Source: Bacilli bacterium
GTDB taxonomy: Bacteria > Bacillota_I > Bacilli_A > ML615J-28 > CAG-698
Direction: 5' to 3'
Assembly: GCA_028702495.1 (NCBI GenBank)
Contig: JAQVOS010000001.1
Coordinates: 10,383 to 74,382, forward strand
DNA: 64,000 nt
The notes below the pieces were generated by a model. That model had not been told where the DNA came from. It was given only the letters and a program-made list of their open reading frames with translations, and made no database searches. Position 1 is the stretch's first letter. Every line of letters starts with the position of its first letter. Below, one piece after another: positions 1,990-34,963 of the stretch. Both the position numbers and the translations under genes were made by a program.

Positions 1990-1993
1990 TTTG

Positions 1994-2007: not shown

Positions 2008-2019
2008 AAGGGGGATTTT

Positions 2020-7870: not shown

Positions 7871-7898
7871 ATAAAAAGTAGGCCGTTGACGCCTACTT
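7871..7898 (-). terminator. Rho-independent terminator for lipoprotein gene (stem AAGTAGGC/GCCTACTT, U-run on minus strand)
   Basis: 8-bp stem, 7-nt loop, A-run 7871-7877 on plus strand (= T-run on minus). Confidence 0.55.
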
Positions 7899-7943: not shown

Positions 7944-8816
7944 TTATTCAATGGAGAAATTTCTAATATAGATACCGATGGACTGAATATCAGGATCACT
8001 TAAAACACTAAAATACTGATTGATTTCTTCCATGGTACATATTTCATAGGTTATAATAAGAATATATACTCCAATAGAAGTGGTAATTCCTTCTTCTTCC
8101 ACCCCATATAAATCATATTTTTCTTGCATATAAGCATCACGCGTGTTGTTATCATACCCTTTAGGATCCATTAAGAGAACAACTTCGACATTCACAAAGG
8201 GATGAGAGAGCCTCTCTTCTACTTTAGTTATATCAGCTGGAAAGTTAAAATACTCAACGACTGCAACTTGAGTCGTTTCACCAACCACGGACTCTAGTCC
8301 TTTAATTAGATCATATTGAATAGCAAAGTAATACTCCCTTGGAGCATATAGACATATAGCTACTTCTGGTCTTTGCATATTTGCATGAACCGTGAGGATC
8401 CCATCTTCATGAAACAGGTGATGAATAACAACTTTGGTCCCCACAACGTGATCAAACTCAATGAAGAGAATTAAACCCTTTTTTTCAAAATAAGCTTCGT
8501 TATAAAAGGTGTTATCATATCCCGATTCAATAAATTCTTCATAGGATTCAAAGTGGATTAGGATGGGATAATCTATTCCTGGTTCAACCTGATGAGGTGA
8601 AGATTGAGCGAGTCGAGGATATGTCCCCATAGTAAAGGGAATCACTCCTTCCGTATCACTATGAACGAAATGTTCTTCTGAATCTATGGCCGTCTCTTCT
8701 TTTGAATATTGATTTTTATCATCATTGATAAGCGAATCTTGTGCCGGAAGTGTGCATCCTGTTAGTATTCCTAATGCAACGATAACCATCAATATTTTCC
8801 TAATTACTTGTTTCAT
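7944..8816 (-). CDS. Hypothetical lipoprotein
   Basis: Signal peptide with lipobox LTGC; no recognisable catalytic motif. Confidence 0.5.
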   Translation of the reverse strand: MKQVIRKILMVIVALGILTGCTLPAQDSLINDDKNQYSKEETAIDSEEHFVHSDTEGVIPFTMGTYPRLAQSSPHQVEPGIDYPILIHFESYEEFIESGYDNTFYNEAYFEKKGLILFIEFDHVVGTKVVIHHLFHEDGILTVHANMQRPEVAICLYAPREYYFAIQYDLIKGLESVVGETTQVAVVEYFNFPADITKVEERLSHPFVNVEVVLLMDPKGYDNNTRDAYMQEKYDLYGVEEEGITTSIGVYILIITYEICTMEEINQYFSVLSDPDIQSIGIYIRNFSIE

Positions 8817-8899
8817 CAGTCTAGCCTTCTTTCATTTGATAATACGAAGAAGACCTTTTGATTATTGGAAAAATGTTTAATGTTGTTGTTTTTTCATCT

Positions 8900-9682
8900 T
8901 CAATGAGTCGTTTCTTTAAAGAAGGCTTGTGTAAGAATTGGCAAAGTGATATCTTCTTTTACATTTTTAATAAATGTTGCCAATTCTTCTACATCAAAAT
9001 CTTGTAATGTTTTCCCCTTTTTTGAAGTTGCTGCCTTTGCATTACCCACATAATGATGAGGATAATTGGCATACCAACTAAGCCCTGTGAATAAGTTGGG
9101 AATGTGAGATAGACGCATTAAGGGCGTTACTTCTCCATCAGAGATCTCATTCATATGGATGAGATGTGGGTGATTCGCAAGAGAGATGCTGGTTTCGCAC
9201 TCACAAGCATGACCATGCCATTTCGTTGTCCTTACACTTTGATATAATTTGGTACGTGCTTCCGAACCTGGCTGATATAAATATAGCTGATAATCACGTT
9301 CTTTATCGAGTTGAGATTGGGCAAGGAATGTTAAAAAGGCGTTGTTGCCCCCATGGCCATTCACAAGAATGATTTTTTTGATACCATTACGACCCATCTC
9401 ATCAAGAAGCGATTGGACGAGTTCCATCAAAAGAGAACTTTTTATTGCAATGGTTCCTGGAAAACAGCGTGCTTCTAAAATCTGCCCGAAATAAAAGGGA
9501 GGAAAAACAAGAACCTCTTCTTTTTCACTGGCAAGTACCGCTAAGCGATGAACATTTAAAAAATCAGTTCCCAAAGGAAGATGATCTCCATGTTTTTCTA
9601 ATACTCCAAAGGTTAGAACACAAACAGGATTTCGTGTAACAACTTCATGAAATTGCTTTGATGTTAATTCTTCCCATTTCAT
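8900..9682 (-). CDS. Creatininase-family (creatinine amidohydrolase-like) metal-dependent amidase
   Basis: Family-typical blocks …LEKHGDHLPLGTD… and …VNGHGGN…; about 260 aa. Confidence 0.7.
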   Translation of the reverse strand: MKWEELTSKQFHEVVTRNPVCVLTFGVLEKHGDHLPLGTDFLNVHRLAVLASEKEEVLVFPPFYFGQILEARCFPGTIAIKSSLLMELVQSLLDEMGRNGIKKIILVNGHGGNNAFLTFLAQSQLDKERDYQLYLYQPGSEARTKLYQSVRTTKWHGHACECETSISLANHPHLIHMNEISDGEVTPLMRLSHIPNLFTGLSWYANYPHHYVGNAKAATSKKGKTLQDFDVEELATFIKNVKEDITLPILTQAFFKETTH

Positions 9683-9723
9683 ATATTATACTTCCTTTCA
9701 ATCAATTGATTCAATACAAAAAT

Positions 9724-10782
9724 TTATGAGTTAAGCAATATCTTTCTTACATAGTGTGAACTCATGCATTGTAATAGGCTTGCATAATCTAAAGAAAACG
9801 AAACAATGTCTCCGAGATGATATGTGTTGTCTTCTAATTGAATGATGAGATAATCACTATTTGACTCGAGCGATTTGATTGTCGAATCATGAGGTGTTAA
9901 ATGATTGTGATCAACATCTTGCTTTCCAATCGCAAGAATTGCACGATTCATTTCCCCACTGTTGCGAAGGATTGGCGTTTCGCCAAATGCATTTATCGAG
10001 AGGGTCCCAATCGGATGGGATGGTTTTCTTTGTATCTCCACAATCTCTGCTTCTAGTGTAAAAGCATCCTGAAACATGCCTGGAATCAAGTTACCAAAAG
10101 CTGTTTCTCGTCCCAAAAAAATCGCTTCACCAATGCGAAGATTATTAATTTGGCTAGGTAGATTATCAAGCATATAAAGGGTGGATGAATTCCCTCCTGA
10201 CACAAGATCAAGATGAATTTCAAATGCATTTTCAATTTTGTTTTTGATATCAACTAGGATTCCCATGTTCACTTGATCGGGAATAACTCCCTCTAGGCAA
10301 GTTAAATTTGTTCCGATTCCTTTTAAATGGATATTAGGGAGATGAAGAATGGCCTTAATAAGCGGCATATAATCTTCTTTATAAAACACGCCTTCACGTA
10401 AATCGCCCAAGTCAAACATGAGGATAACGTCATAATTTTTCTCTTGGCGGAATGCTTCTTGCGAAAGGGCTTCGATTGTCTTTATTTCCGATACCAAAGC
10501 AAGTGAAGAATACTTTATAACATCTTTGATTTCACTCAACATCGGAATTCTTGTGAGAGCTTTTGGTATCGAAAATTCTTGAAATTTTTTTAAATTGTCC
10601 ATCCGGGAATCAGCTAAATAGGTAAAACCTAGTGGGGCTAAAGCCCCTAGAACTTCTTTATATCCTGCTAACACTTTTCCCACCAAAAAGATTGAAGATA
10701 CGCCGTGACGTTTACACAATGATAAAATTGTTTGTGCGTTTGATATCAATTTAGGTAAAGATATCATGATTCGTGGAAACAT
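9724..10782 (-). CDS. orr: Ornithine racemase (PLP-dependent, alanine-racemase fold)
   Basis: Start ATG (MFPRIMISLPKL…) with GGGAGGA RBS embedded in the 3' end of the upstream gene; alanine-racemase-like size (352 aa); last gene of the ornithine cluster as in Clostridium sticklandii. Confidence 0.65.
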   Translation of the reverse strand: MFPRIMISLPKLISNAQTILSLCKRHGVSSIFLVGKVLAGYKEVLGALAPLGFTYLADSRMDNLKKFQEFSIPKALTRIPMLSEIKDVIKYSSLALVSEIKTIEALSQEAFRQEKNYDVILMFDLGDLREGVFYKEDYMPLIKAILHLPNIHLKGIGTNLTCLEGVIPDQVNMGILVDIKNKIENAFEIHLDLVSGGNSSTLYMLDNLPSQINNLRIGEAIFLGRETAFGNLIPGMFQDAFTLEAEIVEIQRKPSHPIGTLSINAFGETPILRNSGEMNRAILAIGKQDVDHNHLTPHDSTIKSLESNSDYLIIQLEDNTYHLGDIVSFSLDYASLLQCMSSHYVRKILLNS

Positions 10783-10784
10783 TC

Positions 10785-12146
10785 CTATTCCTCCCATCCA
10801 ATACTCTTTAACATCAAGATAAGACTTGCTTTGGGATTGACTTTCGCAAGCACACCGCATGAAGCCAAAATATAGTCTTGATCAATCCAAATGGTGGTTC
10901 CTTCTTCTGGTTTTAGGCTGCTCCCATCTTTTTGCATTAAATAGTTTTTAATAAGACTCATCCGATTAGGAAGTTGTGTGAGAGCCCCTCCTGTTGCAAC
11001 AAAGTTTTTAATTCTACGTAAATCTTTGCCTTCGATGAGATTGGAGTAATGCTTTCCTTGATAAGAGTAACGCATAAATCCTGCATGACGACGAATCCCT
11101 ACCTTTAGAGCCTCGTAAGTAAGACGCTCCGTCAAAGCAATTTGATTTTGATCGGGAATCGGCAAATAGTTTTCTAATAAACTATTTAATTCTTTTTGAT
11201 CGATATGAAGTGCTCGACAAAGGACATCTTCTCCAATGAGTTTTACCAAATGATATCGATTAATATATACTCCCAAATCCCCTTCAACCGTTCTTTTCGC
11301 AAAGGGTTCTGGTGTAATTGAAACATTGGTATCGGTATTTTTGGCTTCACCAATCGAAACGACATCTGTAGTAGCTCCTCCGATATCACAACAAATAATT
11401 TCTCCAATTTGATCGTGTAATAAGCGACAAGCTTCATACACAGCTCCTGGTGTCGGAATAATGATTCCATCTACCATTTGTCGGATGTGACTCATTCCTT
11501 TTGCTTCGGTAATATGTTCCTCAAAAATTCGATGAATGATTTGACGAACACCTTCAATATTAATTTCATCAATTTTAGGATATACATTCTCCCCAATCAA
11601 TAAATGGGATTCTTCTCCTGCCAATCGAAATGCTTCCCGAACGGCGATATGATTTACACAATTTCCCGCATAGAGAACAGGTATTCCTAATTTTAAATTT
11701 GCGATGCGTTTTGCGTTTTCTAAGGCTGTCTCATTTTCACCATAATCAACTCCACCCGCAATCATAATGATGTTTAATTGGAGCTTTTTGATTTCTTCGA
11801 GCTCCGAATCGTTCAATATCCCTGAGGTGACCATTTTAACATTTGCCCCAGCTCCTAAAGCAGCTTCCTTCGCAGCTTTGACGGTCATGTCATAGACAAG
11901 ACCATGAACACTCATTTTAAGTCCTCCAGCAGCAGAGGAAGAAGCTAGAACAAGACGTGCTTCTATTTTGTTTTTAGTTTTAATTTCATAATCTAGAATC
12001 GCATTTTGAAGCCCAATCCGAACATCTTCGATGGTTGTTGGGGCTATACCCTGACCTAAAAAAATTGGATTATGATCAAGATGATCAAAAACATTAACGG
12101 TTGTTGTCGTACTTCCAATTTCTGCAATCAAACAATCGACTTTCAT
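10785..12146 (-). CDS. MutL/GlmL-like protein (glutamate-mutase accessory/reactivase-like; actin/hexokinase-fold ATPase) of the ornithine aminomutase cluster
   Basis: 453 aa, ATGA overlap with oraE; position between oraE and orr matches the C. sticklandii cluster. Confidence 0.55.
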   Translation of the reverse strand: MKVDCLIAEIGSTTTTVNVFDHLDHNPIFLGQGIAPTTIEDVRIGLQNAILDYEIKTKNKIEARLVLASSSAAGGLKMSVHGLVYDMTVKAAKEAALGAGANVKMVTSGILNDSELEEIKKLQLNIIMIAGGVDYGENETALENAKRIANLKLGIPVLYAGNCVNHIAVREAFRLAGEESHLLIGENVYPKIDEINIEGVRQIIHRIFEEHITEAKGMSHIRQMVDGIIIPTPGAVYEACRLLHDQIGEIICCDIGGATTDVVSIGEAKNTDTNVSITPEPFAKRTVEGDLGVYINRYHLVKLIGEDVLCRALHIDQKELNSLLENYLPIPDQNQIALTERLTYEALKVGIRRHAGFMRYSYQGKHYSNLIEGKDLRRIKNFVATGGALTQLPNRMSLIKNYLMQKDGSSLKPEEGTTIWIDQDYILASCGVLAKVNPKASLILMLKSIGWEE

Positions 12147-14326
12147 AAAACTTCTTCCATTTTTTTCATTAAGAAAGTCGCAACATGGGCTCCTTTGGTT
12201 CCACGACCAAAACCAGCGTCGACTCCTTGCTTAATGGCAAGGTCATGAGTCACTTGGGTTCCACCCACAACGAAAATCAAACTTTTACGAACCCCTCGTT
12301 CAATGGCATACTCATGTAGTTTCTTCATATTCAAGTAGTGAACATCATTATGCGAAATAATGGTTGACATGAGAATGGCTTGAGATTTGGTTTCAATGGC
12401 AGCATCAATGAATTTTTGAATGGGAACAGATGTTCCAAGATATTCTACTTCAATTCCATATTTTTCGATACCACCATGTTTGATATCGATGATTTCTCTT
12501 AAGCCAACAGAATGCTCATCTTCTCCTGCGGTACCAGCAACAATCTTACAATGGTGTGTTTTAAAAAAACTTGTTAACTCTTCATCACTTGCAACATAGG
12601 GTTCTTCACGAAGCGTGAGGGTTGATGTATCTATACTAAAACTCACACGTCCTTTGATTTGAATCCGCGTTCCTTCGGATGGATGAAGGATTTCTTTATG
12701 AATAATTTCAACATCAAGCAAGTTCATTTTCTTTCCAATTTCAAGACTTGCTGCTTCTGCTAGTCTTAAACTGGTTGGAAGTGTGATATCAACGACCACA
12801 ATTCCATCGCCACACCACTGGACTTCTGGTATAATCTCGGAAGTGTTGCGATAGGGAGCCACTTCTTCAAGCCGATGATGAACATTATCCTCATCGAGTT
12901 CATCGATGAATATAATCTTATTGGGGTCTTCAAAAGTAGAACCCCCAATTAAATCCGAAGGATTCTTGACGCCATATAGTTCATAATGATTGACCCCAAA
13001 ATGAGCGGTAACAGGGGCTAAATAATCTGGATCACGTTTATAAATGGTATTTGCACCCACGCCGCTCTGTTCACGTCTTACGATGCCATCCCCATTTCTT
13101 TCAGGATAAAATCCTGAATCCACGAAGAACCCTGCTTCAACAGCCGCAAAGTATCCACCCGCTTCAAGAAGTTCTTCTAAAAAGAGAACCGCTCTTTCTT
13201 TTAATTCGCGAACACGAATCTTCATGATGCCTTCATGACGAACTTCAACCAACTCCTTTAATCCATCAAGACCTGCAAATGCTTGTTTTGCGGTATCACA
13301 TGCTTCAATATTGTACATATGCCATGGAACATTTCGTCCCTCATCAGGCGTTATCGTCGATTGAATATCTGCAGATGTTAGGGTAGAAATAAGAAGATTC
13401 ATGACATGGGTCACGGTTGCTTCACGAGTTGAAGACTCCATGTATTTTGTATTCATTTGAGCACGAATTTTAAATGCATCAAAAAACTCTCTTAATGCCA
13501 CCGCATAAGGTAAGTTAATTCGTAAATCAGGTGCAGGAGGTGCAATCGGTGGCACTGAAGACAGGGCTATTAAATCAGATTTCATGCCAACTTTTAATGA
13601 GAATGCGCAATTTATCGCATGCTGAACGAGAAGTTCAGGCATGACTTTCCATGCAATCTTGGCGGTAGCATTCGCATTATGGGCTCCATCAATCTGAAGC
13701 ATATTTGCCCACGCCATAATGTGTTTTGACTCTGCAGCATCAACAAATGAACGAACCATATTAATATTTCGATATAAGACATTATATTGAGGGTCCTGGT
13801 GAGCTCCATTAACGCCTTCTTCAGCAAACATGACAGCAATCTCAGGACCTGCAACACCCGATACATAGGAGTGATAATTGATCGGACGACCCACTTCATC
13901 TTCAATCAAATCGAGTGCTTTTCTCTGCGCTCGGACTTGTTTTCTTGTAATGGGAATACCTCCAACTCCTTGCGGTGTTCCTTCAATGAGTCCGTCAAAA
14001 TGAGATTGGCCTGCGGTACGAATGACCATCATATGATCGGCTCCATGCCACGCTGCCATCCTCATGCGTCGAATATCATCTTCGAAACGTCCTGAAGCAA
14101 TTTCGGTTGTAATGGTTTGAATGGGCTGAGGATCAATGGACCCTACATATTTGGCTGCAGGAAGAGGGATACTTTCCTTTAAATTTTTTGAAGTGTTGTA
14201 ATAAATATAATCATTTAATTTTTGATGTTTGACCGCTTCACGCCATACCCACCCTCTTCTTCGGGGGCGATAGTTCTCAAGATTGGCGAGAATCTTTTCA
14301 ATATTAATGGGGGTATCTTTATTCAT
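12143..14326 (-). CDS. oraE: D-ornithine 4,5-aminomutase subunit E (PLP- and adenosylcobalamin-binding)
   Basis: 727 aa from ATG at 14326 (GGAGGT RBS); C-terminal Rossmann-type B12-binding domain (…LIFVVGGTQVTHD…); upstream small oraS. Confidence 0.75.
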   Translation of the reverse strand: MNKDTPINIEKILANLENYRPRRRGWVWREAVKHQKLNDYIYYNTSKNLKESIPLPAAKYVGSIDPQPIQTITTEIASGRFEDDIRRMRMAAWHGADHMMVIRTAGQSHFDGLIEGTPQGVGGIPITRKQVRAQRKALDLIEDEVGRPINYHSYVSGVAGPEIAVMFAEEGVNGAHQDPQYNVLYRNINMVRSFVDAAESKHIMAWANMLQIDGAHNANATAKIAWKVMPELLVQHAINCAFSLKVGMKSDLIALSSVPPIAPPAPDLRINLPYAVALREFFDAFKIRAQMNTKYMESSTREATVTHVMNLLISTLTSADIQSTITPDEGRNVPWHMYNIEACDTAKQAFAGLDGLKELVEVRHEGIMKIRVRELKERAVLFLEELLEAGGYFAAVEAGFFVDSGFYPERNGDGIVRREQSGVGANTIYKRDPDYLAPVTAHFGVNHYELYGVKNPSDLIGGSTFEDPNKIIFIDELDEDNVHHRLEEVAPYRNTSEIIPEVQWCGDGIVVVDITLPTSLRLAEAASLEIGKKMNLLDVEIIHKEILHPSEGTRIQIKGRVSFSIDTSTLTLREEPYVASDEELTSFFKTHHCKIVAGTAGEDEHSVGLREIIDIKHGGIEKYGIEVEYLGTSVPIQKFIDAAIETKSQAILMSTIISHNDVHYLNMKKLHEYAIERGVRKSLIFVVGGTQVTHDLAIKQGVDAGFGRGTKGAHVATFLMKKMEEVL

Positions 14327-14693
14327 GATGACCTCCAAAACTTTTGATAACTTTATCCCAACCTTCTCCATTGATAAGAGCAAGCCCCGCTTCGCGAATC
14401 GGTAGGGAGGCTAGTTGATGATATCGAAAAACAACATGACCGGCTCCCTTTCCCATCAGTTCATGAGCCATCACTTTTTCAACGAGGGCTTTGGCCTCAA
14501 GGGAGGAGAATCCCATTCGTAGTAAAACACTGCGTTCGAGAGAAGGACTGGTATGTGTTTTTGCAAGATCAACTAAGGGTTCTACTGCTTGATTGGCTAA
14601 GCACCAAAAAGTGGCCTTTAATTCTTCATCGGATAAAGAGGCCAGATGTTTACGTCTTGCCTCAAAATCATCGCTTCTAGCTATTATTTTCAT
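14319..14693 (-). CDS. oraS: D-ornithine 4,5-aminomutase subunit S
   Basis: 124-aa protein; ATG at 14693 overlaps ortB stop (ATGA); size/position as OraS. Confidence 0.65.
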   Translation of the reverse strand: MKIIARSDDFEARRKHLASLSDEELKATFWCLANQAVEPLVDLAKTHTSPSLERSVLLRMGFSSLEAKALVEKVMAHELMGKGAGHVVFRYHQLASLPIREAGLALINGEGWDKVIKSFGGHHE

Positions 14694-16099
14694 ACCTTCC
14701 ACCTCAATTCTTTTTCTTGTAATAGCGAGAAGAGTTCTACTTCGCTTACTTTTAATTCTTCTTGTAAATACACTAAATCATCGCTTGTTAAAACAATCTC
14801 TTTTGTCACATTCGCTCCTAAATATGAGAGTCGTACACGATGTAAATCTACATCTTGAACATGAATAAGACTTGGATGTTCTGGAAGAATGATAGACTGT
14901 CCTGGAACTTCTGTTCTAGGATTTCCAAATTCAAGTTTAATTCCTTGTTTTCTAGCGAATGATAACTGGGCTTGATGATGTTTTCCTGCACCCGTATATT
15001 CGGTTTCTTGAACGACGATTACTTGATCTTGACGCAGTTCTTGAGCCAAAGAGAAAGCACAAGCGAGTGAGACATTCCCTGCAGGACCTCGTTCAATCCC
15101 TTCTAAAAGGGCCAAGGTTTCTGTCATAAAGAACACTTCTCCTTGAGTCATCGTAACATAACGATCAATATAACGTAGGGGACGTGCAGCAGAACGTGGC
15201 ACATCACTTCGATCAGGTTGCATCATAAAAGGAAGACCAAAACCCGTGTGGCCTGTTGTAAAGGATTTTCGATTAAAATCATAGTCGCTTGCCATATGTA
15301 AGCCAACAAGATTGACACTAGCACCCACAATCTCGACAGGGTCTGTCGTTGCTCGTTTGATTCCACGTGCGGTTCCGGTTAGGTTTCCCCCTCCAGCATT
15401 GGTACATACAACCATATCGGGTGAACGCCCGATTTGCTTCATACAATCTTCGATAACTTCTATTCCTAAAGTTTCAATTCCTAGGATTCCATAGGGGGTG
15501 TATAAAGAAGCATTAAAATAACCAGTCTCTTCTAATAATTGTAAGAATACATAAAAAAGTTCGGGACCAACCGATAGCTGAACGACCTCAGCTCCATACG
15601 CTTCACATGCTCGTGCTTTTTCTATAATTTCTGGTTGACCAATGCCGCGAGAATCATAGCACTCCTGAACAATGATGCAGGGAAGATTTAGTTTAGCAGC
15701 TTGCGAAGCCACTGCTGCTCCATAGTTTCCACTTGTAGCAGCAATCACACCAGGATAACCAAGCCGTTTTGCATGGTAACAGGAGATGGCAGCACGTCTG
15801 GCTTTAAAACTTCCCGAGTCATTGAGGGCTTCATCTTTGATAAAGATTCTAGCACCTTTCCCAGGTTGACTACAACGTCTTGCTAAAGCGGTGATATTTT
15901 TTAGTTCTTTTAGGGGAGTTTTTCCAACTCCATGCTCTAATTGAATTTTTTTCACCATGTTAATCGGATATCCATGGTCCTTCATTAAGGATTCGTATTG
16001 AAATCCAATTTGAGATCTTTCATACTGAGAATAATCAATCCCAATAGCTTTTTTCATAATCTCGTTCTTACGAGCCATGACACGATCGTATTTATTCAT
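14690..16099 (-). CDS. ortB: 2-amino-4-ketopentanoate thiolase beta subunit (PLP-dependent, Trp-synthase-beta fold)
   Basis: 469 aa with PLP-fold motifs; follows ortA. Confidence 0.7.
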   Translation of the reverse strand: MNKYDRVMARKNEIMKKAIGIDYSQYERSQIGFQYESLMKDHGYPINMVKKIQLEHGVGKTPLKELKNITALARRCSQPGKGARIFIKDEALNDSGSFKARRAAISCYHAKRLGYPGVIAATSGNYGAAVASQAAKLNLPCIIVQECYDSRGIGQPEIIEKARACEAYGAEVVQLSVGPELFYVFLQLLEETGYFNASLYTPYGILGIETLGIEVIEDCMKQIGRSPDMVVCTNAGGGNLTGTARGIKRATTDPVEIVGASVNLVGLHMASDYDFNRKSFTTGHTGFGLPFMMQPDRSDVPRSAARPLRYIDRYVTMTQGEVFFMTETLALLEGIERGPAGNVSLACAFSLAQELRQDQVIVVQETEYTGAGKHHQAQLSFARKQGIKLEFGNPRTEVPGQSIILPEHPSLIHVQDVDLHRVRLSYLGANVTKEIVLTSDDLVYLQEELKVSEVELFSLLQEKELRWKV

Positions 16100-16379
16100 G
16101 AGAAGACCTCACAAGCGTTTCAATGCGTAAAAGTTCAGGAACAAATTCACCATAACTATGACGATATGTTGGATTGACTTCAATCAATTTACCTTCTTCT
16201 AAACGATGCGTTTTGGTTTTGATATGAACCCAATCAAACATCTCTGCATCTTCTAAAAGGGTTCCTTTGACCCACATTTTAAGAGGAGTCTTTTTCGTAT
16301 CTTCGGGTATATGAGAACTTCGCTCTTGAGGCTCTAAAACAATGCGCTCAATGAGAACCCAACTTCCTTTTTGAATCAT
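16092..16379 (-). CDS. ortA: 2-amino-4-ketopentanoate thiolase alpha subunit
   Basis: 95 aa from ATG at 16379 (MIQKGSW…), ATGA overlap with ord stop, GAGGAAAAG RBS. Confidence 0.6.
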   Translation of the reverse strand: MIQKGSWVLIERIVLEPQERSSHIPEDTKKTPLKMWVKGTLLEDAEMFDWVHIKTKTHRLEEGKLIEVNPTYRHSYGEFVPELLRIETLVRSSHE

Positions 16380-17419
16380 ATCTTTTCCTCCACAAGAGCT
16401 CGTACATCCCCACAAATGGCGCGAGGAACGGGAAGATCTAGCATCGTTTTTAAGCCTGGAGTCGCATTCAGGAGGAGAGGAATCATATTAACACAAATGG
16501 CAATCGTTCCCATGCCACCTTCCACTTCAGGACTAATCGACATTTTAATATTGGGACTCCCTGCTAGGGTGATATAGTCTCCGGTTGTGATACCTCCAAG
16601 ATGAGGTTCAATTTGTTGGGGGTGATGTAAATGAAAGAATGTTTTACCATCTTTCACCCCTTCAGCTTCCATATCAATTCCGCATACATGTCCTGCTTTC
16701 GCAAACCCATGTGGGGAGGTTCGATCCACATCGGTGATAATGGGTTTCATGGTTTGACTAACGACTACATCCTTTAATCCAAGACCCTCACTCATCATCG
16801 AAATCGACTCCCAAAAACCAATGTGACCAGAAATCTGTGTGCATTTGGCATCATATTCTTCGATTGACAAGCCTACTCCTTGTTCTTCCATCACCGCCTT
16901 GCCAAAAGGGGATAAAGAGTTCACACGGGATACCTCAATATTTTTCACATCACTCATGACTCCTGTTAAAAACAACACGAGTAAATCCATCATCATTCCC
17001 GGATTGACCCCTGTTCCGAGAATCCGAACATGATAAGCTTTTGCAAGTTCATCCATTTTTTTAGATAGCTCAGGGTTTGCTGCATAAGGATAAGCCATTT
17101 GTTCAGCCGTTGATATGACATTAATTCCATGTTTTACAAGCCACTCAATTTTAGGGTAAGCTTTCTCAGTAAAAGAATCTGTTGCAAGTAAACAAATATC
17201 AGCCCTTTCCCAATGGGGAATATCAGTCACTGAAGATGCAATCCGTGCATCCTCAGCATAATCACTTATTAATTCCTTGATGGATTTTCCAATGAGAGCA
17301 GGATTCATATCCACTGCTCCAAGAATTTGAAAACCCTGCTTATGGGCAATCATCTGGGCCATTCCTTTACCCATAGCTCCAAAGCCCCAAATCATCACTT
17401 TAATCTTTTCTTGTCTCAT
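16376..17419 (-). CDS. ord: 2,4-diaminopentanoate dehydrogenase (DapB-like NAD(P) oxidoreductase)
   Basis: N-terminal Rossmann motif IWGFGAMGKG; 347 aa; context between arcC and ortA. Confidence 0.7.
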   Translation of the reverse strand: MRQEKIKVMIWGFGAMGKGMAQMIAHKQGFQILGAVDMNPALIGKSIKELISDYAEDARIASSVTDIPHWERADICLLATDSFTEKAYPKIEWLVKHGINVISTAEQMAYPYAANPELSKKMDELAKAYHVRILGTGVNPGMMMDLLVLFLTGVMSDVKNIEVSRVNSLSPFGKAVMEEQGVGLSIEEYDAKCTQISGHIGFWESISMMSEGLGLKDVVVSQTMKPIITDVDRTSPHGFAKAGHVCGIDMEAEGVKDGKTFFHLHHPQQIEPHLGGITTGDYITLAGSPNIKMSISPEVEGGMGTIAICVNMIPLLLNATPGLKTMLDLPVPRAICGDVRALVEEKI

Positions 17420-18348
17420 ATATCCTCCTCAGTAATTATCGTTCCACATCTTCCTTTTAAAGCCTCGTTAGCTTCTTCAAGGGAAGTAATAATAGCCATG
17501 CGATGGGAATTTCCACGAACAAATTCAACGCTTGCTTCTACCTTAGGAAGCATACTTCCCTTCGCAAAATGTCCTTCTTCGATATAGCGAAGCGCCTCAC
17601 TCACTGATAAATGGCGAAGCGCACATTCCTTAGGTGTTCTATAATGAAGGACCACATAAGGAACGGTTGTTAAAATGAGTAAAATGTCAGCATCAATTCT
17701 GCGTGCTAAAAAACTGCTCACATAATCCTTATCAATGACAGCATCGACCCCAACCCATTCATTGCTTTTCAAGACAACAGGAATGCCTCCACCCCCACAA
17801 CAAATAAGGGTGACCTTTTCTTTTAACAATGCTGTAATCACGTCTTCTTCAAGAATCCCAATCGGAAGCGGTGAAGGGACAACTCTTCGATATCCGCGCT
17901 TTGCATCTTCAATAAATGTATAACCTCGCGCGCGTTCTAAATTACGCGCTTCTTCTTCGGTATAAAAACCACCAATGGGCTTTGTTGGAGTGAGAAAATG
18001 AGGGTCGTTTTCATCAACTTCCACTTGAGTTAAGAGGGTTGCCACGGAATGCTCTTCTTTTAAACAATTTTTTAAAGCTTTTTGTAAATGATACCCAATA
18101 TACCCCTGACTCATTGCTCCACATTCAGGAAAAGGCATCGTGAATAGTTTATCATTCACACGACTAGACTCGGAAAAGGCAAGATGAATGGCACCCACTT
18201 GGGGACCATTTCCATGCGTGATCACGAGTTCATGACCCACAAGAATCATTTCTTTTAAAATCGCAACTGTTTTATAAACATTCTTACTTTGCTCCTCTGG
18301 GGTTTGCCCTAAAGCATTGCCCCCTAGGGCAACCACAATGCGACTCAT
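17416..18348 (-). CDS. arcC: Carbamate kinase
   Basis: N-terminal [10 protein letters not shown] motif of amino-acid-kinase family; 310 aa. Confidence 0.85.
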
Positions 18349-19346
18349 ACCTCACCACCAAGAGATGCTACCATCACCGCTTTAATTGTATGTAGACGAT
18401 TCTCAGCTTCATCAAATACCACAGATTGGCTAGATTCAAAGACTTCATCAGTCACTTCCAAACCAACGAGTCCATATTCTTCGAAAACTTCTTTGCCCAT
18501 CGTTGTTTCAAGATTGTGAAAACTAGGTAAACAATGTAAGAAAATCGCATTTTTATCAGCAAGTTGCATTACATCTTTCCTCACTTGATAGGGTTTAAGG
18601 AGAGCGATTCGCTCGCCCCATACGCTATGATCTTCGCCCATTGAAACCCAGACATCCGTGGTAATAACATCTACTCCTTTTACCCCTATAGCGATATCTT
18701 CTGTAAAGAGAAGATGAGCTCCCGTTTCATGTGCTATTTCTCTTGCCTTCTCGATGAGAGTTTCTTCTGGCCATAACACGCGAGGTGCAACAAGACGAAA
18801 ATCAAGTCCCATTTTAGCAGCTCCAATTAAGAGTGAGTTTCCCATGTTATAACGAGCATCGCCCAAGTAAGCCATTTTAATTCCTTTTAAGGCTCCTTTA
18901 TGTTCTAGGATGGTGAGGAAATCAGCGAGTATTTGGGTGGGATGATAACGATCAGTTAATCCATTCCATACCGGAACCCCTGAATACTTAGCCAATATTT
19001 CTACAGATTCTTGATGATATCCTCGAAATTCAATACCATCAAACATCCGACCTAAAACACGAGCAGTATCTTTGATGCTTTCTTTCTTTCCCATTTGAGA
19101 CCCACTAGGGCCCAGATAAGTCGCATGCATTCCTTGATCATACGCTGCCACTTCGAAAGCACAACGTGTTCTCGTCGAATCTTTCTCAAAAATAAGGGCA
19201 ATATTTTTCCCCACACAACGCTTCTTTTCAATCCCTTGTTGTTTTTCGAATTTCAGTTGTTGGGCTAGGTTTAGTAGATATAATATCTCTTCTGGTGCAT
19301 AATCAAGTAGTGTTAGTAAACTCCTGTTTTTTAGATTCATAGTCAT
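18345..19346 (-). CDS. arcB: Ornithine carbamoyltransferase (catabolic)
   Basis: STRTR carbamoyl-phosphate motif and HCLP ornithine-binding motif; 333 aa. Confidence 0.9.
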
Positions 19347-19355
19347 TTCCTCAAT

Positions 19356-20585
19356 CTATTCAATGTCATCACGGATAAAGGGCATACTCATACAACGAGG
19401 TCCACCTCTTCCGCGTGATAATTCACTCGATGGAATGGGATAAATCTTGATTCCATGTTCTTCAAGTAGATGGTTGGTGATGTGATTTCGCTCATACACA
19501 ATCACTTCTCCTGGAGCAATCGCCATCGTGTTAACTCCATCATTCCATTGCTCACGATCTGATGCAATGGCATCGCCACCCCCACAAGGGATAAGCGTCA
19601 CAGGTCGCTTTAAGTAATGCGATAAGATCGCGTCTAGCTTTTTCTCAATTGGTTTGACAAATAGTTTCAAATCCCGTTTTGGATCTTTCATTAATTCGAA
19701 AACGCGCATCGACTGATTGATATCACTATGGATGGTGAACTTGTCATAATCAACCTGGGTAAAAACTGTATCTAGGTGCATAAAAGCTCTTGTTTTAGGA
19801 ATGTCAAAGGCGAGTACTTTTTCAAAAGTTGTATTGTTGAAATAGAGAAGTTGTTTGGCAAGACGTTCAATTGAAGCAGGGTGTGTTCTTTGGGAGACTC
19901 CCACAGCTACAATTTTATCGTTTAGCACCATGATGTCTCCTCCTTCAATCGAAGTCGAAGCATCTCTTTTATAATAAATCGAAGGCATTGGATTTCCATA
20001 ATGAGGATGATACCTGAAAATATATTCTCCAAAAATACTCTCACGACTACGACTAGAGGCATACATTTTCCCGAGCATAACTCCTTTACCAATAATGGTA
20101 AAGGGATCTCTCGTAAAATATAGATTAGGCATAGGATCTGTGACAAATGGATAATCACGAATATAATCGGATAACGTTCTTTTAGTGAAATTGGGGATAT
20201 CCACTTTTCTAATTCCAGCCATCATTTTCGCAATCATATCACGGGTTGGAAGTGCCTCTAAATAAGTGCGCAAAATGGAACTCAATGTTTCACTGGTCAC
20301 ATTCGATTCTTTAATAAATTGATTAATAAAGGCTTCTTTCACATTCAGCCCTGAATCAAGGGTCTCTTCAATTAAATCCACCAAATATAGAACTTCAATT
20401 CCTTTGCTTTGGTAAAAGCAAGATAAGGCTTGATGTTCTTCTTTGGCTCGTTCTAACCATGGGATGTCATCGAACAATAATTGTTCTAACATCTTGGGCG
20501 TTAAATGTTCTAATTCTTGTCCTGGTTCATGCAATAGGACACATTTTAAGCGACCAATCTCCGAATTAATTCGTAAAGAATCCAT
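19356..20585 (-). CDS. arcA: Arginine deiminase
   Basis: 409 aa; C-terminal GGGPRCMSMP catalytic-Cys region typical of ADI. Confidence 0.85.
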   Translation of the reverse strand: MDSLRINSEIGRLKCVLLHEPGQELEHLTPKMLEQLLFDDIPWLERAKEEHQALSCFYQSKGIEVLYLVDLIEETLDSGLNVKEAFINQFIKESNVTSETLSSILRTYLEALPTRDMIAKMMAGIRKVDIPNFTKRTLSDYIRDYPFVTDPMPNLYFTRDPFTIIGKGVMLGKMYASSRSRESIFGEYIFRYHPHYGNPMPSIYYKRDASTSIEGGDIMVLNDKIVAVGVSQRTHPASIERLAKQLLYFNNTTFEKVLAFDIPKTRAFMHLDTVFTQVDYDKFTIHSDINQSMRVFELMKDPKRDLKLFVKPIEKKLDAILSHYLKRPVTLIPCGGGDAIASDREQWNDGVNTMAIAPGEVIVYERNHITNHLLEEHGIKIYPIPSSELSRGRGGPRCMSMPFIRDDIE

Positions 20586-20658
20586 AATTCCTCCTCATTA
20601 TGCTTTTATTATAACATAAAAACGTTTTCAATTAAAGGGGGAATCGTGAGTGACACCT

Positions 20659-20696
20659 AAAATAAAAGGGATAGAAAGTAAAATTACTTTCTATCC
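20659..20696 (-). terminator. Rho-independent terminator after crtO-like gene (GGATAGAAAGTA/TACTTTCTATCC stem, U-run on minus strand)
   Basis: 12-bp perfect stem, 4-nt loop, followed on the minus strand by TTTTATTTT. Confidence 0.65.
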
Positions 20697-21200
20697 GACT
20701 TGTTTGTATTGACGATTGGGGTGTTTTTCAAGCAAGTGTTTGATGCGTGGACGATTATAGCGCTGCACAATAATGCAGGGCATATTGACGATAAGACTAT
20801 ACACGAGCATCATCCAACCAACATAGAATGGCGTGAATAAGAAGAAGATCCAAAATAAGAGAATGGGTCCAATATGGGTTGCTTCCCCACGACAAGACTC
20901 AACAAGAAATTTTTCCAGATTTTCATCACGATAATCTTCTAAATGCTTCTTTTGATATCCTTTTTTTCGCCAAACAGCACCTCCATCTGGCAGAAGATGC
21001 TTCCACGATTTCACTTTAAAAAGAGTTTGATACAACTCACCCTCTTTTTCAAATGCATGACTTCGATAAACCCAATGATCGGGGTGAAACAAGCGTTTCG
21101 GTAGATTCAACATGAGTAGGGCACACCCTGATTGAATAATAGGCCATACAATAAAACATAGAAGAATGGTCAGTTCATCACTTAAAAAGAGAACTCTCAT
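20691..21200 (-). CDS. crtO: Glycosyl-4,4'-diaponeurosporenoate acyltransferase-like membrane protein
   Basis: 169 aa; C-terminal …IIVQRYNRPRI… matches the conserved IIVQRYNRPRL block of S. aureus CrtO; ATGA overlap with upstream GT2. Confidence 0.65.
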   Translation of the reverse strand: MRVLFLSDELTILLCFIVWPIIQSGCALLMLNLPKRLFHPDHWVYRSHAFEKEGELYQTLFKVKSWKHLLPDGGAVWRKKGYQKKHLEDYRDENLEKFLVESCRGEATHIGPILLFWIFFLFTPFYVGWMMLVYSLIVNMPCIIVQRYNRPRIKHLLEKHPNRQYKQVG

Positions 21201-22306: not shown

Positions 22307-22310
22307 ATCA

Positions 22311-25881: not shown

Positions 25882-26856
25882 GTGTTTCAATTACATATTG
25901 ATAAAAAGCCACCAACAACAGTTACTAAAGTAACAGTTTATGATCTCATCATTATTGGGGGTGGCCCTGCTGGTCTTAATGCAGCCCTTTATGCCAAGCG
26001 TAAAGGATTAAACGTCCTTCTTCTCGCAAAAGAAATTGGCGGACAACTTCATAACACAAGCATTGTTGATAACTATTTGGGATTTAAGGAAATAGAAGGA
26101 AAAGACTTGTCCAATACTTTTTTGCATCATCTCGAAACCTTATCTGTTCCAATAATGACTAATATAACTGTGAAGAATCTAGCATATCAAAAGGATATCT
26201 TTACCATTCAAGTTTCTGCAAGCCAATCCTATCAAGCTAGAACTGTTCTCCTTACAACGGGAGGTGCTCCAAGAAAGCTCAATATCCCTGGCGAAAAAGA
26301 GTATCAAAACAAAGGGGTCTCATATTGTACGACATGTGATGCTCCATTCTTCAAAGGAAAACATGTTATTGTTGCTGGGGGTGGAAATAGCGCTGCTGAA
26401 GCCATTATAGATCTTGCTGCTTGGGCTAGTAAAACAACACTTGTTCATCGAAGCGAATGGCGAGCCGATGATATCATTTTGCAAAAAGTAAAAACAATTC
26501 CTAATTTAACCATTCATCTACAAACACAAATCACAAGGATTTATGGAGATGACTTCATGAAAGGAATCAATGTTTTTGATAAAGTAACCGGTAAGGAAAG
26601 TTCCATTCTTGCTGATGGCATCTTCATCGAAATTGGGACCATTCCGAATAGTGATTTAGTAAAGGGTTTAGCAACCCTCAATGAAATTGGAGAAGTCATC
26701 GTTGACTCCAATCAAATGACGTCTTTCCCTGGATTATTTGCTGCAGGAGATGTCACAGCATCCCCTCATAAACAAATTGTTACCTCGATCGCCCAAGGAG
26801 CCATTGCTGCTTTAGGTGTGACACAATATTTAAATTTAAAGGAGAATAAAATATGA
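25882..26856 (+). CDS. Thioredoxin-reductase-like FAD/NAD(P) pyridine nucleotide-disulfide oxidoreductase
   Basis: GTG start with GAGGTGA RBS; IIIGGGPAGLNAA FAD motif, redox-active CTTC, second Rossmann VAGGGNSA. Confidence 0.75.
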   Translation: MFQLHIDKKPPTTVTKVTVYDLIIIGGGPAGLNAALYAKRKGLNVLLLAKEIGGQLHNTSIVDNYLGFKEIEGKDLSNTFLHHLETLSVPIMTNITVKNLAYQKDIFTIQVSASQSYQARTVLLTTGGAPRKLNIPGEKEYQNKGVSYCTTCDAPFFKGKHVIVAGGGNSAAEAIIDLAAWASKTTLVHRSEWRADDIILQKVKTIPNLTIHLQTQITRIYGDDFMKGINVFDKVTGKESSILADGIFIEIGTIPNSDLVKGLATLNEIGEVIVDSNQMTSFPGLFAAGDVTASPHKQIVTSIAQGAIAALGVTQYLNLKENKI

Positions 26857-34946: not shown

Positions 34947-34963
34947 AAAAACTCCCTCTCTTC

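What the first reader, a model, noticed from the sequence alone, without database searches (positions are those of the whole stretch)
9724..20585. Single super-operon fusing the arginine deiminase pathway to the B12-dependent oxidative ornithine (Stickland) pathway
Ten co-directional genes (arcA, arcB, arcC, ord, ortA, ortB, oraS, oraE, mutL-like, orr) have gaps of 10 nt or less, several with ATGA stop/start overlaps. Together they would convert arginine to ornithine + carbamoyl-P (ATP), then to D-ornithine, 2,4-diaminopentanoate, 2-amino-4-oxopentanoate, and finally acetyl-CoA + alanine. In the organism where the ornithine genes were characterised (Clostridium sticklandii), the arc genes are not part of the same transcription unit as far as I recall. 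Here no arcD antiporter and no dedicated regulator are visible in the operon. A terminator-less junction between arcC and ord implies co-transcription.
Basis: partly seen in the sequence, partly recalled or inferred. Interest (0 to 1): 0.6.

Follow-up and report, generated by a model that had tools for sequence, protein, structure and literature searches.

The report
Arginine-to-acetate fermentation operon, no antiporter
Ten tightly packed genes really do join the arginine deiminase pathway to the vitamin-B12-dependent ornithine breakdown pathway in one operon, but the same layout is common in public genomes of related wall-less and low-GC Bacilli, so this is a tidy, little-described arrangement, not a one-off.

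Summary
On the minus strand, 20585..9724 holds arcA, arcB, arcC, ord, ortA, ortB, oraS, oraE, a GlmL/MutL-like gene and orr. The junctions are +9, -4, -4, -4, -8, -4, -8, -4 and +2 nt, and each start has a Shine-Dalgarno sequence.

Gene identities hold:
- OraE scores 1315 bits against the OraE model and 157 against lysine 5,6-aminomutase. It scores 1152 bits against the C. sticklandii enzyme (3KOW).
- Orr and the GlmL-like protein fall just below NCBIfam cut-offs.

There is no room for a terminator between arcC and ord, because the two genes overlap in ATGA.

The layout is not unique:
- The nearest relative has the identical 10-gene block at the same chromosomal site.
- 36 of the 80 species-level genomes nearest by Ord similarity link arc genes to the ornithine cluster; 8 of them have the full arcABC-ord order.
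- 24 others, mostly Clostridia, show no arc gene within the sequence held around the cluster (up to 10 kb each side).

New points:
- Neither the operon nor the window contains an ArcD-like permease candidate (no ArcD/ArcE profile was run).
- A cre-like box overlaps the promoter and keeps that position in about 20 of 24 related promoters.
- In this window transcription probably runs on into two inserted genes, down to a terminator at 7898..7876.

Interest is about 0.3.

The parts
20669..20696 (-). Intrinsic terminator of the upstream carotenoid operon. It isolates the arcA promoter from read-through.
   Evidence: 12-bp stem followed by a T-run. Folds at -16 kcal/mol, z = -6.5.
20608..20636 (-). 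Putative arcA promoter. The -35 box is TTTAAT (20636..20631), followed by a 17-nt spacer and an extended -10, TGtTATAAT (20616..20608). A cre-like box, TGAAAACGTTTTTA, fills the spacer at 20630..20617.
   Evidence: Sequence read. The same -35 / cre-like / TGnTATAAT architecture is present in L083 and in about 20 of the 24 related operon promoters. 22 of 24 hold the motif with at most 2 mismatches, against 3.0 +/- 1.7 in shuffles. Within the window alone the motif count is at chance level. Function is inferred.
19356..20585 (-). arcA, arginine deiminase
   Evidence: TIGR01078, 516 bits against a cut-off of 489.1. Pfam ADI. The C-terminal GGPRCMS catalytic-Cys motif is present.
18345..19346 (-). 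arcB, ornithine carbamoyltransferase. It is read as catabolic from its context.
   Evidence: NF003286, 543.7 bits against a cut-off of 515. The putrescine carbamoyltransferase model scores only 263.6 against a cut-off of 500.
17416..18348 (-). arcC, carbamate kinase. Its start overlaps the arcB stop and its stop overlaps the ord start; both overlaps are ATGA.
   Evidence: TIGR00746, 361.3 bits against a cut-off of 358.25. Junctions.
16376..17419 (-). ord, 2,4-diaminopentanoate dehydrogenase
   Evidence: NF040740, 453 bits against a cut-off of 400. Pfam DAP_DH_C. Homologues with solved structures score 276-367 bits (7xdu, 6g1h, 6g1m).
16092..16379 (-). ortA, small subunit of 2-amino-4-oxopentanoate thiolase
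   Evidence: NF040739, 122.9 bits against a cut-off of 70. Pfam OrtA.
14690..16099 (-). ortB, PLP-dependent subunit of 2-amino-4-oxopentanoate thiolase
   Evidence: NF040741, 801 bits against a cut-off of 550. The SFK(99)AR PLP-lysine motif is present.
14319..14693 (-). oraS, small subunit of D-ornithine 4,5-aminomutase
   Evidence: Pfam OAM_alpha, 170.6 bits. 145 bits to C. sticklandii 3KOW_E. No NCBIfam model matched.
12143..14326 (-). oraE, large subunit of D-ornithine 4,5-aminomutase (dependent on B12 and PLP)
   Evidence: NF040743, 1315 bits against a cut-off of 800, compared with 157 bits for lysine 5,6-aminomutase alpha. 1152 bits over the full length of 3KOW_A. The DEHSVG...IDIKHGG cobalamin-His and PLP-Lys motif is conserved.
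10785..12146 (-). GlmL/MutL-like 'Or-4' accessory protein. It is presumed to be a mutase chaperone or reactivase.
   Evidence: NF040744, 544 bits, which is below the cut-off of 600 but well above the GlmL model (364). The TIGR01319 family model scores 250.8 against a cut-off of 204. Pfam MutL.
9724..10782 (-). orr, ornithine racemase
   Evidence: NF040742, 433 bits, below the cut-off of 480, but covering positions 1-350 of the 351-position profile. Lys36 and an N159-x-x-C162 motif correspond by position to the catalytic Lys-36, Asn-161 and Cys-164 of OrnR described in PMC13397332.
8900..9682 (-). Creatininase-family hydrolase of unknown substrate. It is probably co-transcribed as an 11th gene and is an insertion relative to the nearest relative.
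   Evidence: Pfam Creatininase, 174.7 bits, but below every NCBIfam equivalog cut-off. The gap after orr is 41 nt with an SD sequence and no terminator. Absent from L083 and from all other loci examined.
7944..8816 (-). Predicted lipoprotein with no family match. It is possibly the last gene of the transcript.
   Evidence: Signal peptide with a Cys lipobox-like N-terminus. No Pfam or NCBIfam hit. Absent from L083.
7876..7898 (-). First convincing intrinsic terminator downstream of the operon
   Evidence: 8-bp stem followed by TTTTTAT. Fold z = -2.3. In L083 the equivalent terminator lies directly after orr.

Best explanation
This is one catabolic operon. It takes arginine all the way to acetyl-CoA, D-alanine, CO2 and ammonia inside the cell.

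Pathway (enzyme chemistry is established knowledge; the enzyme identities are shown here by sequence):
1. ArcA converts arginine to citrulline and NH3.
2. ArcB converts citrulline to ornithine and carbamoyl phosphate.
3. ArcC converts carbamoyl phosphate to ATP, CO2 and NH3.
4. Orr racemises L-ornithine to D-ornithine.
5. OraS/OraE, helped by the GlmL-like protein, shift the amino group to give 2,4-diaminopentanoate. This step needs adenosylcobalamin and PLP.
6. Ord oxidises 2,4-diaminopentanoate to 2-amino-4-oxopentanoate, yielding NAD(P)H.
7. OrtA/OrtB cleave that product with CoA to acetyl-CoA and D-alanine.

Transcription and translation (inferred from sequence):
- Transcription starts at an extended -10 promoter about 20 nt upstream of the arcA start codon.
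- The genes are translationally coupled through overlapping stop and start codons.
- The transcript probably continues through two inserted genes to the terminator at 7898..7876.
- A cre-like operator inside the promoter spacer suggests repression by a CcpA-type regulator when sugars are available.

Transport (inferred): ornithine is consumed inside the cell and not exported, so an arginine/ornithine antiporter would have little ornithine to exchange. This fits the lack of arcD or arcE. Arginine must enter by another transporter encoded elsewhere.

Energy yield (inferred): one ATP from carbamate kinase, plus potentially a second from acetyl-CoA through Pta and AckA. Those genes are not in this window.
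For: - Gene identities.
- Junctions of -8 to +9 nt with an SD sequence before every start.
- No excess of internal promoter-like or terminator-like sites, and none at arcC/ord.
- Strong terminator just upstream of the promoter, and none until 7898..7876.
- The same 10-gene block at the same locus in the nearest relative, flanked there by a divergent gene upstream and a terminator downstream.
- Arc genes are linked to the ornithine cluster in 36 of 80 species-level genomes, in three different layouts: arcABC upstream, arcBC upstream, and arc genes downstream of orr after alr. arcC-ord gaps are -1 to 57 nt in 27 of them. This argues for selection on co-expression.
- Related operons add genes that make sense only for the complete pathway: alanine racemase for the D-alanine product, and a PduO-type cobalamin adenosyltransferase for the mutase.
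- A cre-like box is conserved in 22 of 24 promoters, against 3.0 +/- 1.7 in shuffles.
- A survey of 124 arc gene clusters (PMC5300872) found that nearly all arc clusters carry arcD or arcE, so their absence here is meaningful.
Against: - There are no transcript or enzyme data. Co-transcription, the direction of the ArcB reaction, B12 dependence and cre function are all inferred.
- Orr and the GlmL-like protein score below their curated NCBIfam cut-offs.
- The window lacks an arginine transporter, Pta/AckA, an adenosyltransferase, an alanine racemase, and any obvious sink for the NAD(P)H made by Ord. Completeness of the pathway in this organism is therefore unverified.
- The cre-like motif alone is not significant within the window: 8 matches against 5.95 +/- 2.75 expected.
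- The related promoters are not phylogenetically independent.
Confidence: 0.8

Rival explanations
1. There are two functional units that merely abut. arcABC and ord-orr would be expressed separately, from an internal promoter inside arcC or by mRNA processing, and regulated independently.
For: In 24 of the 80 related genomes, mostly Clostridia, the ornithine cluster stands alone. In three Izemoplasmatales loci an fhs gene separates arcC from ord. In six loci the arc genes lie at the other end of the cluster. The two modules are therefore separable in evolution.
Against: arcC and ord overlap by 4 nt (ATGA). No minus-strand promoter-like hit lies between about 17420 and 18348, and no terminator lies there. 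The junction is tight, at -1 to 57 nt, in 27 related operons. The only conserved promoter-plus-operator architecture lies upstream of the first gene.
Confidence: 0.1
2. The mutase module acts on a different diamino acid, such as lysine or beta-lysine, so the operon would not be an ornithine pathway.
For: OraE shares domains with lysine 5,6-aminomutase (Pfam Lys-AminoMut_A). Lysine-aminomutase-like genes lie upstream of the cluster in L010 and L026.
Against: OraE scores 1315 bits to the OraE equivalog against 157 and 124 bits to the two lysine 5,6-aminomutase subunits. It scores 1152 bits to C. sticklandii OAM against 117 bits to lysine 5,6-aminomutase. OraS, Ord, OrtA and OrtB all match the ornithine-specific models.
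Confidence: 0.03
3. The block is a recent horizontally acquired island and not a resident trait of this lineage.
For: The operon has 41-42% G+C against 34-38% in its flanks. In this window it is bracketed by strain-specific insertions: the carotenoid operon upstream, and the creatininase and lipoprotein genes downstream.
Against: The same block lies between the same flanking genes in a relative whose proteins are only 59-88% identical, so it predates their divergence. Linked arc and ornithine clusters occur throughout the related orders. Higher G+C is usual for conserved enzyme genes in AT-rich genomes.
Confidence: 0.05

Closest known systems
Oxidative L-ornithine degradation cluster (orr, oraS, oraE, or-4, ord, ortA, ortB) of Clostridium/Acetoanaerobium sticklandii and C. 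difficile. Source: Fonknechten et al. 2009, J Bacteriol 191:3162, cited from reference lists because the full text was not available.
   Same: All seven gene families are present. OraE is about 70% identical by eye over its full length to the crystallised C. sticklandii enzyme, with the cofactor motifs intact. The chemistry is the same.
   Different: Here the cluster is fused in-frame-tight behind arcABC under one promoter. The host is a low-GC Bacilli lineage (relatives are labelled Izemoplasmatales, Haloplasmataceae or 'Tenericutes'), not a Clostridium. In the sampled Clostridia loci no arc gene lies within the sequence held around ord, up to 10 kb each side. C. sticklandii itself was not inspected.
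Classical arginine deiminase operons, arcABC with arcD or arcE and often arcR or argR. Source: a survey of 124 arc clusters, PMC5300872.
   Same: arcA, arcB and arcC occur in the common order and pass the curated family cut-offs. A cre-like element in the promoter recalls the CcpA control of arc operons described in other Firmicutes; that comparison is from my own knowledge.
   Different: There is no ArcD/ArcE-type exchanger and no regulator gene in the operon, whereas 'with few exceptions' all surveyed clusters had one exchanger. Ornithine is a pathway intermediate here and not the excreted end product.
Unnamed arc-ornithine operons in public genomes. Examples are Tenericutes bacterium HGW-Tenericutes-1 (PGXM01000013.1, L003), 'Inordinaticella fortuita' 4B (NSKI01000013.1, L026), a Haloplasmataceae MAG (L010), Mycoplasmatota bacterium zrk2 (CP076020.1, L014) and a 'Bacilli bacterium' MAG (L083).
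   Same: Gene order is identical to the window (arcA-arcB-arcC-ord-ortA-ortB-oraS-oraE-or4-orr) in L003, L004, L006, L010, L026, L032 and L083. The promoter and cre-like architecture is the same.
   Different: Many Izemoplasmatales lack arcA in the operon and begin with arcB. Some add alr, pduO or fhs. Acholeplasmataceae and Mariniplasma place the arc genes after orr-alr. The window uniquely has creatininase-family and lipoprotein genes appended.
Lysine fermentation cluster with D-lysine 5,6-aminomutase (kamDE)
   Same: The mutase is a homologous B12- and PLP-dependent enzyme, and the logic of amino-acid fermentation is similar.
   Different: It is only distantly similar, at 117-157 bits. The window genes are not members of this cluster.

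Membership tests
Arginine deiminase (ADI) pathway operon | Arginine deiminase ArcA | tested here: met
   TIGR01078, 516 bits against a cut-off of 489.1. The catalytic-Cys motif GGPRCMS is present.
Arginine deiminase (ADI) pathway operon | Ornithine carbamoyltransferase ArcB (not putrescine or aspartate carbamoyltransferase) | tested here: met
   NF003286, 543.7 bits against a cut-off of 515. Putrescine carbamoyltransferase scores 263.6 against a cut-off of 500.
Arginine deiminase (ADI) pathway operon | ArcB works in the catabolic direction (citrulline phosphorolysis) | not testable with these tools
   Inferred only from its position between arcA and arcC.
Arginine deiminase (ADI) pathway operon | Carbamate kinase ArcC | tested here: met
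   TIGR00746, 361.3 bits against a cut-off of 358.25, a marginal pass. NF009007, 323 bits against a cut-off of 266.
Arginine deiminase (ADI) pathway operon | Arginine/ornithine exchanger ArcD or ArcE in the cluster | tested here: not met
   The operon contains no membrane protein. No ORF in the 64-kb window has the size and transmembrane count of an ArcD-like permease. Only some of the membrane ORFs were put through Pfam, and those were an ABC permease, DUF554 and BioY; no ArcD/ArcE profile was run. The fused operons of relatives also lack one, with the possible exception of L081.
Arginine deiminase (ADI) pathway operon | Cluster-encoded regulator (ArcR or ArgR) | tested here: not met
   There is none within 20585..7944. 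A Crp/Fnr-family gene lies about 7 kb away at 1978-2637, and its link to the operon is untested.
Oxidative ornithine degradation cluster | D-ornithine 4,5-aminomutase OraE with the B12-binding DxHxxG motif and the PLP lysine | tested here: met
   NF040743, 1315 bits against a cut-off of 800. 1152 bits to 3KOW_A. DEHSVG...IDIKHGG is conserved.
Oxidative ornithine degradation cluster | OraS small subunit | tested here: met
   Pfam OAM_alpha, 170.6 bits against a cut-off of 29.7. 145 bits to 3KOW_E.
Oxidative ornithine degradation cluster | 2,4-diaminopentanoate dehydrogenase Ord | tested here: met
   NF040740, 453 bits against a cut-off of 400.
Oxidative ornithine degradation cluster | 2-amino-4-oxopentanoate thiolase OrtA and OrtB | tested here: met
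   NF040739, 122.9 bits against a cut-off of 70. NF040741, 801 bits against a cut-off of 550.
Oxidative ornithine degradation cluster | Ornithine racemase Orr with the Lys/Cys catalytic pair | tested here: inconclusive
   NF040742, 433 bits, below the cut-off of 480. Lys36 and N159-x-x-C162 match by position the Lys-36, Asn-161 and Cys-164 reported for OrnR, but no alignment to a characterised sequence was made.
Oxidative ornithine degradation cluster | GlmL-related Or-4 accessory protein | tested here: inconclusive
   NF040744, 544 bits, below the cut-off of 600. This is better than the GlmL model (364), and the TIGR01319 family model is passed.
Oxidative ornithine degradation cluster | B12-dependent conversion of ornithine to acetyl-CoA and alanine | not testable with these tools
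   This needs enzyme or growth assays.
Single transcription unit (operon) | No terminator or promoter between the genes, and bounded by a promoter and a terminator | tested here: met
   Junctions are -8 to +9 nt. Scans are at chance level, with nothing at arcC/ord. A terminator lies at 20696..20669 before the promoter and another at 7898..7876.
Single transcription unit (operon) | One mRNA spanning arcA to orr | not testable with these tools
   This needs RNA-seq or RT-PCR.
CcpA/cre-controlled promoter | Match to the cre consensus TGWAANCGNTNWCA, positioned over the promoter | tested here: met
   There is one mismatch, and the box lies between the -35 and -10 elements. 22 of 24 related promoters hold the motif with at most 2 mismatches, against 3.0 +/- 1.7 in shuffles, and about 20 of them hold it directly before the -10 box.
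CcpA/cre-controlled promoter | CcpA binding and glucose repression | not testable with these tools
   This needs EMSA or expression data. The presence of ccpA in this genome is unknown.

The most novel reading that the evidence does not exclude
The antiporter-less arc-ornithine operon would be a self-contained fermentation of arginine to acetate plus alanine, yielding up to 2 ATP per arginine. It would be a main, so far unrecognised energy module of free-living wall-less and low-GC Bacilli (Izemoplasmatales, Haloplasmatales, environmental Acholeplasmatales and relatives such as this organism). It would be switched by a conserved cre-type operator. The loss of arcD/arcE would be a direct consequence of consuming ornithine internally.
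Probability: 0.45. Interest if true: 0.45.

Novelty: new variant of a known kind. Interest (0 to 1): 0.3.

Why it matters
Both pathways and all the enzymes are textbook. Their sequential use, arginine to ornithine to Stickland oxidation, is known physiology in C. sticklandii.

What is modestly new:
- The two pathways are hard-wired into one translationally coupled operon.
- The arginine/ornithine exchanger that accompanies almost every other arc cluster has been dropped.
- The design recurs, in several layouts, across a large and mostly uncultured group of Bacilli that has so far been discussed mainly as sugar and nucleic-acid fermenters.

If the operon is functional, it doubles the ATP yield of the ADI pathway. 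It also makes arginine catabolism dependent on B12 and alters what is released: alanine, acetate and ammonia instead of ornithine. That matters for cross-feeding models of sediments and guts. It also gives annotation pipelines a clear context rule for naming OrtB, Ord and Orr, which are often mislabelled as threonine synthase, dihydrodipicolinate reductase and alanine racemase.

Tried and rejected
- Lysine 5,6-aminomutase or glutamate mutase identity for the 12143-14326 product: rejected on scores.
- Agmatine/putrescine pathway instead of ADI: rejected. The putrescine carbamoyltransferase model is far below its cut-off, and ArcA passes the arginine deiminase equivalog.
- An internal terminator or promoter at arcC/ord: none found.
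- A riboswitch or other known RNA, such as a cobalamin riboswitch: no Rfam hit in the whole window.
- An ArcD/ArcE candidate or an operon-linked regulator in the window: only an ABC permease, DUF554, BioY and a distant Crp/Fnr-type gene were found.
- The creatininase-family gene as a conserved pathway member: rejected. It is absent from L083 and from all 80 other loci, and it falls below every equivalog cut-off.
- A Crp/ArcR-type palindrome upstream of arcA: nothing convincing by eye, and nothing conserved in L083.
- Literature: Fonknechten 2009 (PMC2681807) and Skennerton 2016 (PMC5113845) are not held. Five full-text searches found no paper describing an arc-ornithine fused operon.
- Organism identity: the exact proteins occur only in two Logan assemblies (SRR22315503, SRR22315505). 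The best named relative is just 'Bacilli bacterium'. I ran no further search on taxonomy.

Full report
**Observation.** I refined the starts against family models.
- The coordinates are arcA 20585..19356, arcB 19346..18345, arcC 18348..17416, ord 17419..16376, ortA 16379..16092, ortB 16099..14690, oraS 14693..14319, oraE 14326..12143, GlmL/MutL-like 12146..10785 and orr 10782..9724.
- The nine junctions are +9, -4, -4, -4, -8, -4, -8, -4 and +2 nt. Five are ATGA overlaps.
- All starts are ATG and each has a GGAGG-like ribosome-binding site.

**Gene identities.**
- ArcA, ArcB, ArcC, Ord, OrtA, OrtB and OraE each pass the curated cut-off of the expected NCBIfam model.
  - It scores 1315 bits on the OraE equivalog, against 157 and 124 bits on the lysine 5,6-aminomutase subunits and 48 bits on methylaspartate mutase S.
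  - It aligns end to end with the crystallised C. sticklandii enzyme (3KOW_A, 1152 bits).
  - It keeps the DEHSVG cobalamin-histidine and IDIKHGG PLP-lysine motif.
- OraS matches Pfam OAM_alpha and 3KOW_E.
- Orr (433 bits against a cut-off of 480) and the GlmL-related protein (544 against 600) fall a little short of their cut-offs.
- Orr has Lys36 and an N-x-x-C162 motif at the positions of the Lys/Cys catalytic pair recently shown for ornithine racemase (PMC13397332).

**Boundaries.**
- Upstream lies a C30-carotenoid-type operon (CrtO-like acyltransferase, a GT2 glycosyltransferase and two amine-oxidase-family desaturases).
  - It ends in a strong terminator at 20696..20669, which folds at -16 kcal/mol with z = -6.5.
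- Between that terminator and arcA lies TTTAAT-N17-TGtTATAAT, followed by an SD sequence and the ATG.
- Inside the operon, promoter-like and terminator-like hits are no more frequent than in shuffled sequence, and none sits at arcC/ord. Those two genes overlap in any case.
- After orr there is no terminator.
  - A 41-nt unstructured spacer with an SD sequence leads into a creatininase-family gene (9682..8900).
  - An 83-nt spacer then leads into a lipoprotein gene (8816..7944).
  - Only after that comes a good terminator, at 7898..7876.
- The transcript in this organism is therefore probably 12 genes long.

**Comparative evidence: the nearest relative.** The exact Ord protein occurs only in two Logan assemblies that show the same local gene order. 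The nearest relative has 71% Ord identity and is labelled 'Bacilli bacterium' MAG (L083).
- It carries the identical ten-gene block between the same neighbours: DUF554, two ABC exporters and a thioredoxin/TrxB-like pair on one side, and EAL, DUF697 and an alpha/beta-hydrolase on the other.
- Those flanking proteins are 59-88% identical to the window's.
- In L083 a clean terminator follows orr.
- The carotenoid operon, the creatininase-family gene and the lipoprotein gene are absent there.

The ten genes are thus the conserved unit, and the window has gained insertions on both sides, or L083 has lost them.

**Comparative evidence: 80 species-level genomes.** I scanned one genome per GTDB species with an Ord profile. 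It matched at least 583 loci and I examined the best 80. I annotated them by tblastn with the window's proteins.
- 8 have arcA-arcB-arcC-ord-ortA-ortB-oraS-oraE-or4-orr, as in the window. They are labelled Tenericutes, Izemoplasmatales, Haloplasmataceae, 'Bacillales' and 'Inordinaticella fortuita'.
- 22 have arcB-arcC-ord... without a detectable arcA in front.
  - These are mostly Izemoplasmatales, including the complete genomes CP076020.1, CP134495.1 and NZ_CP168077.1.
  - Two are Defluviitaleaceae.
  - Three carry fhs inserted between arcC and ord.
- 6 place the arc genes after orr-alr (five have arcA-arcB and one has arcB-arcC). They are labelled Acholeplasmataceae, Mariniplasma, Izimaplasma, Bacillota or Tenericutes.
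- 24, mostly Clostridia, have no arc gene within the sequence held around the cluster (up to 10 kb each side).
- 20 are not fully evaluable.
- arcC-ord gaps are -1 to 57 nt in 27 operons.

**Accessory genes in the relatives' operons.**
- Alanine racemase fits the D-alanine product.
- A PduO-type cobalamin adenosyltransferase fits the mutase.
- No ArcD/ArcE-type permease was seen in these operons. One unclassified 10-TM ORF in L081 is a possible exception.

**Regulation.** The 17-nt promoter spacer contains TGAAAACGTTTTTA (20630..20617), one mismatch from the cre consensus TGWAANCGNTNWCA.
- On its own this is not significant in the window: 8 matches against 5.95 +/- 2.75 expected.
- The same -35 / cre-like / TGnTATAAT arrangement is present in L083 and in most of the related operons.
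- 22 of 24 upstream regions hold the motif with at most 2 mismatches, against 3.0 +/- 1.7 (maximum 8) in shuffles.
- These sequences are related to one another, so this is not a strict probability. However, the proteins in these loci are only 45-75% identical, and at that divergence unconstrained intergenic sequence would not be expected to stay alignable.
- I infer a repressor operator, most simply CcpA/cre, as known for arc operons of other Firmicutes (my own knowledge, not tested).

**Mechanism.**
- *Shown by sequence:* the ten enzyme families, their order and their coupling.
- *Established biochemistry:* the ADI pathway gives ornithine, 1 ATP, CO2 and 2 NH3. The oxidative ornithine pathway gives acetyl-CoA, D-alanine, NH3 and NAD(P)H (summarised in PMC13397332 and PMC3091704).
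- *Inferred:*
  - a single transcript;
  - intracellular channelling of ornithine, which makes an arginine/ornithine exchanger unnecessary;
  - a second ATP via acetyl phosphate;
  - catabolite control.
- *Not visible in this window:* an arginine importer, pta/ackA, an adenosyltransferase, alr and a sink for the reducing equivalents.

**Comparison with what is known, and novelty.**
- The enzymes are ordinary members of their families.
- A survey of 124 arc clusters reports that nearly all contain arcD or arcE (PMC5300872), so this operon is an exception to that rule.
- The C. sticklandii genome paper treats the ADI and ornithine pathways as separate gene sets used in sequence (PMC3091704).
- Five full-text searches found no description of a fused operon. 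The original cluster paper (Fonknechten 2009) and the first Izimaplasma paper could not be read.
- The layout is already present in dozens of public genomes annotated with the same NCBIfam names.

I therefore file it as a small new variant of known systems: real, coherent and widespread, but not surprising to a specialist. Interest is 0.3.

**Limitations.**
- Only the 80 Ord loci most similar to the window were examined, so the frequencies describe that neighbourhood and not all carriers.
- C. sticklandii itself was not inspected.
- The organism is placed only as a Bacilli-class relative of the Izemoplasmatales/Haloplasmatales-like groups.
- All statements about expression and activity are inferences.

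Noticed in passing
window 20691-25708 (minus strand): A four-gene C30-carotenoid/staphyloxanthin-type operon lies directly upstream of arcA. It holds two amine-oxidase-family desaturases, a GT2 glycosyltransferase and a CrtO-like acyltransferase. It is absent from the otherwise syntenic relative L083, so it is an insertion or a differential loss.
   Followed up: partly
window 7944-9682 (minus strand): A creatininase-family hydrolase, below every NCBIfam equivalog cut-off, and an unclassified lipoprotein are appended to the operon with no intervening terminator. They are absent from L083 and from 80 other loci. Their substrate and their relevance to arginine or ornithine metabolism are unknown.
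   Followed up: partly
window 25882-27491 (plus strand); L083 5026-6632: A split AhpF-like pair is present: a TrxB/AhpF-C-like flavoprotein and a two-thioredoxin-fold protein disulfide oxidoreductase (TIGR02187, 245 bits). In L083 this pair is divergently transcribed from the arcA promoter region. A redox link to the pathway is possible but untested.
   Followed up: no
window 1978-2637 (plus strand): A Crp/Fnr-family regulator (cNMP-binding domain plus HTH_Crp_2) lies about 7 kb beyond orr. ArcR regulators of arc operons belong to this family, but no Crp-type palindrome was seen at the arcA promoter.
   Followed up: partly
L003 175-1362; L004 and L006 upstream of arcA; L035, L038, L039, L045, L051 and L052 between orr and arcA/arcB; L022 and L071 after orr: An alanine racemase gene is repeatedly built into the arc-ornithine operons of relatives. 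This fits the D-alanine produced by OrtAB. The window's operon lacks it.
   Followed up: partly
L035 9485-9985 (also L036, L038, L043, L046, L052): A PduO-type cob(I)alamin adenosyltransferase is the first gene of the ornithine operon in Acholeplasmataceae/Mariniplasma-type loci. No such gene is in the window.
   Followed up: partly
L023 8207-9955; also L019 and L031: Formate-tetrahydrofolate ligase (fhs) is inserted between arcC and ord in three Izemoplasmatales genomes. No explanation was found.
   Followed up: no
L005, L007, L008, L011, L014, L024, L025, L027, L040 and others: Many Izemoplasmatales operons start with arcB and have no arcA in front; upstream are divergent OsmC-like genes. 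Either arcA lies elsewhere in those genomes or these organisms feed on citrulline.
   Followed up: partly
L010 1782-6675; L026 1832-6682: Lysine 5,6-aminomutase-like genes and a CoA-transferase subunit lie directly upstream of the arc-ornithine operon. This suggests a combined island for lysine, arginine and ornithine fermentation.
   Followed up: no
Literature: PMC8397711: [quoted passage not shown] OrtB hits threonine-synthase and cysteine-synthase models weakly, so those genes may in fact be this operon. This was not checked.
   Followed up: no
window 34170-37466 (minus strand): ORFs of MnmG-like size and N-terminus (624 aa), RsmG-like size (213 aa) and ParA/Soj-like N-terminus (258 aa) lie together, which hints that the window is near the chromosomal origin. 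These identities were judged by eye only, with no family search. Cumulative GC skew falls across most of the window, with no clear switch.
   Followed up: no
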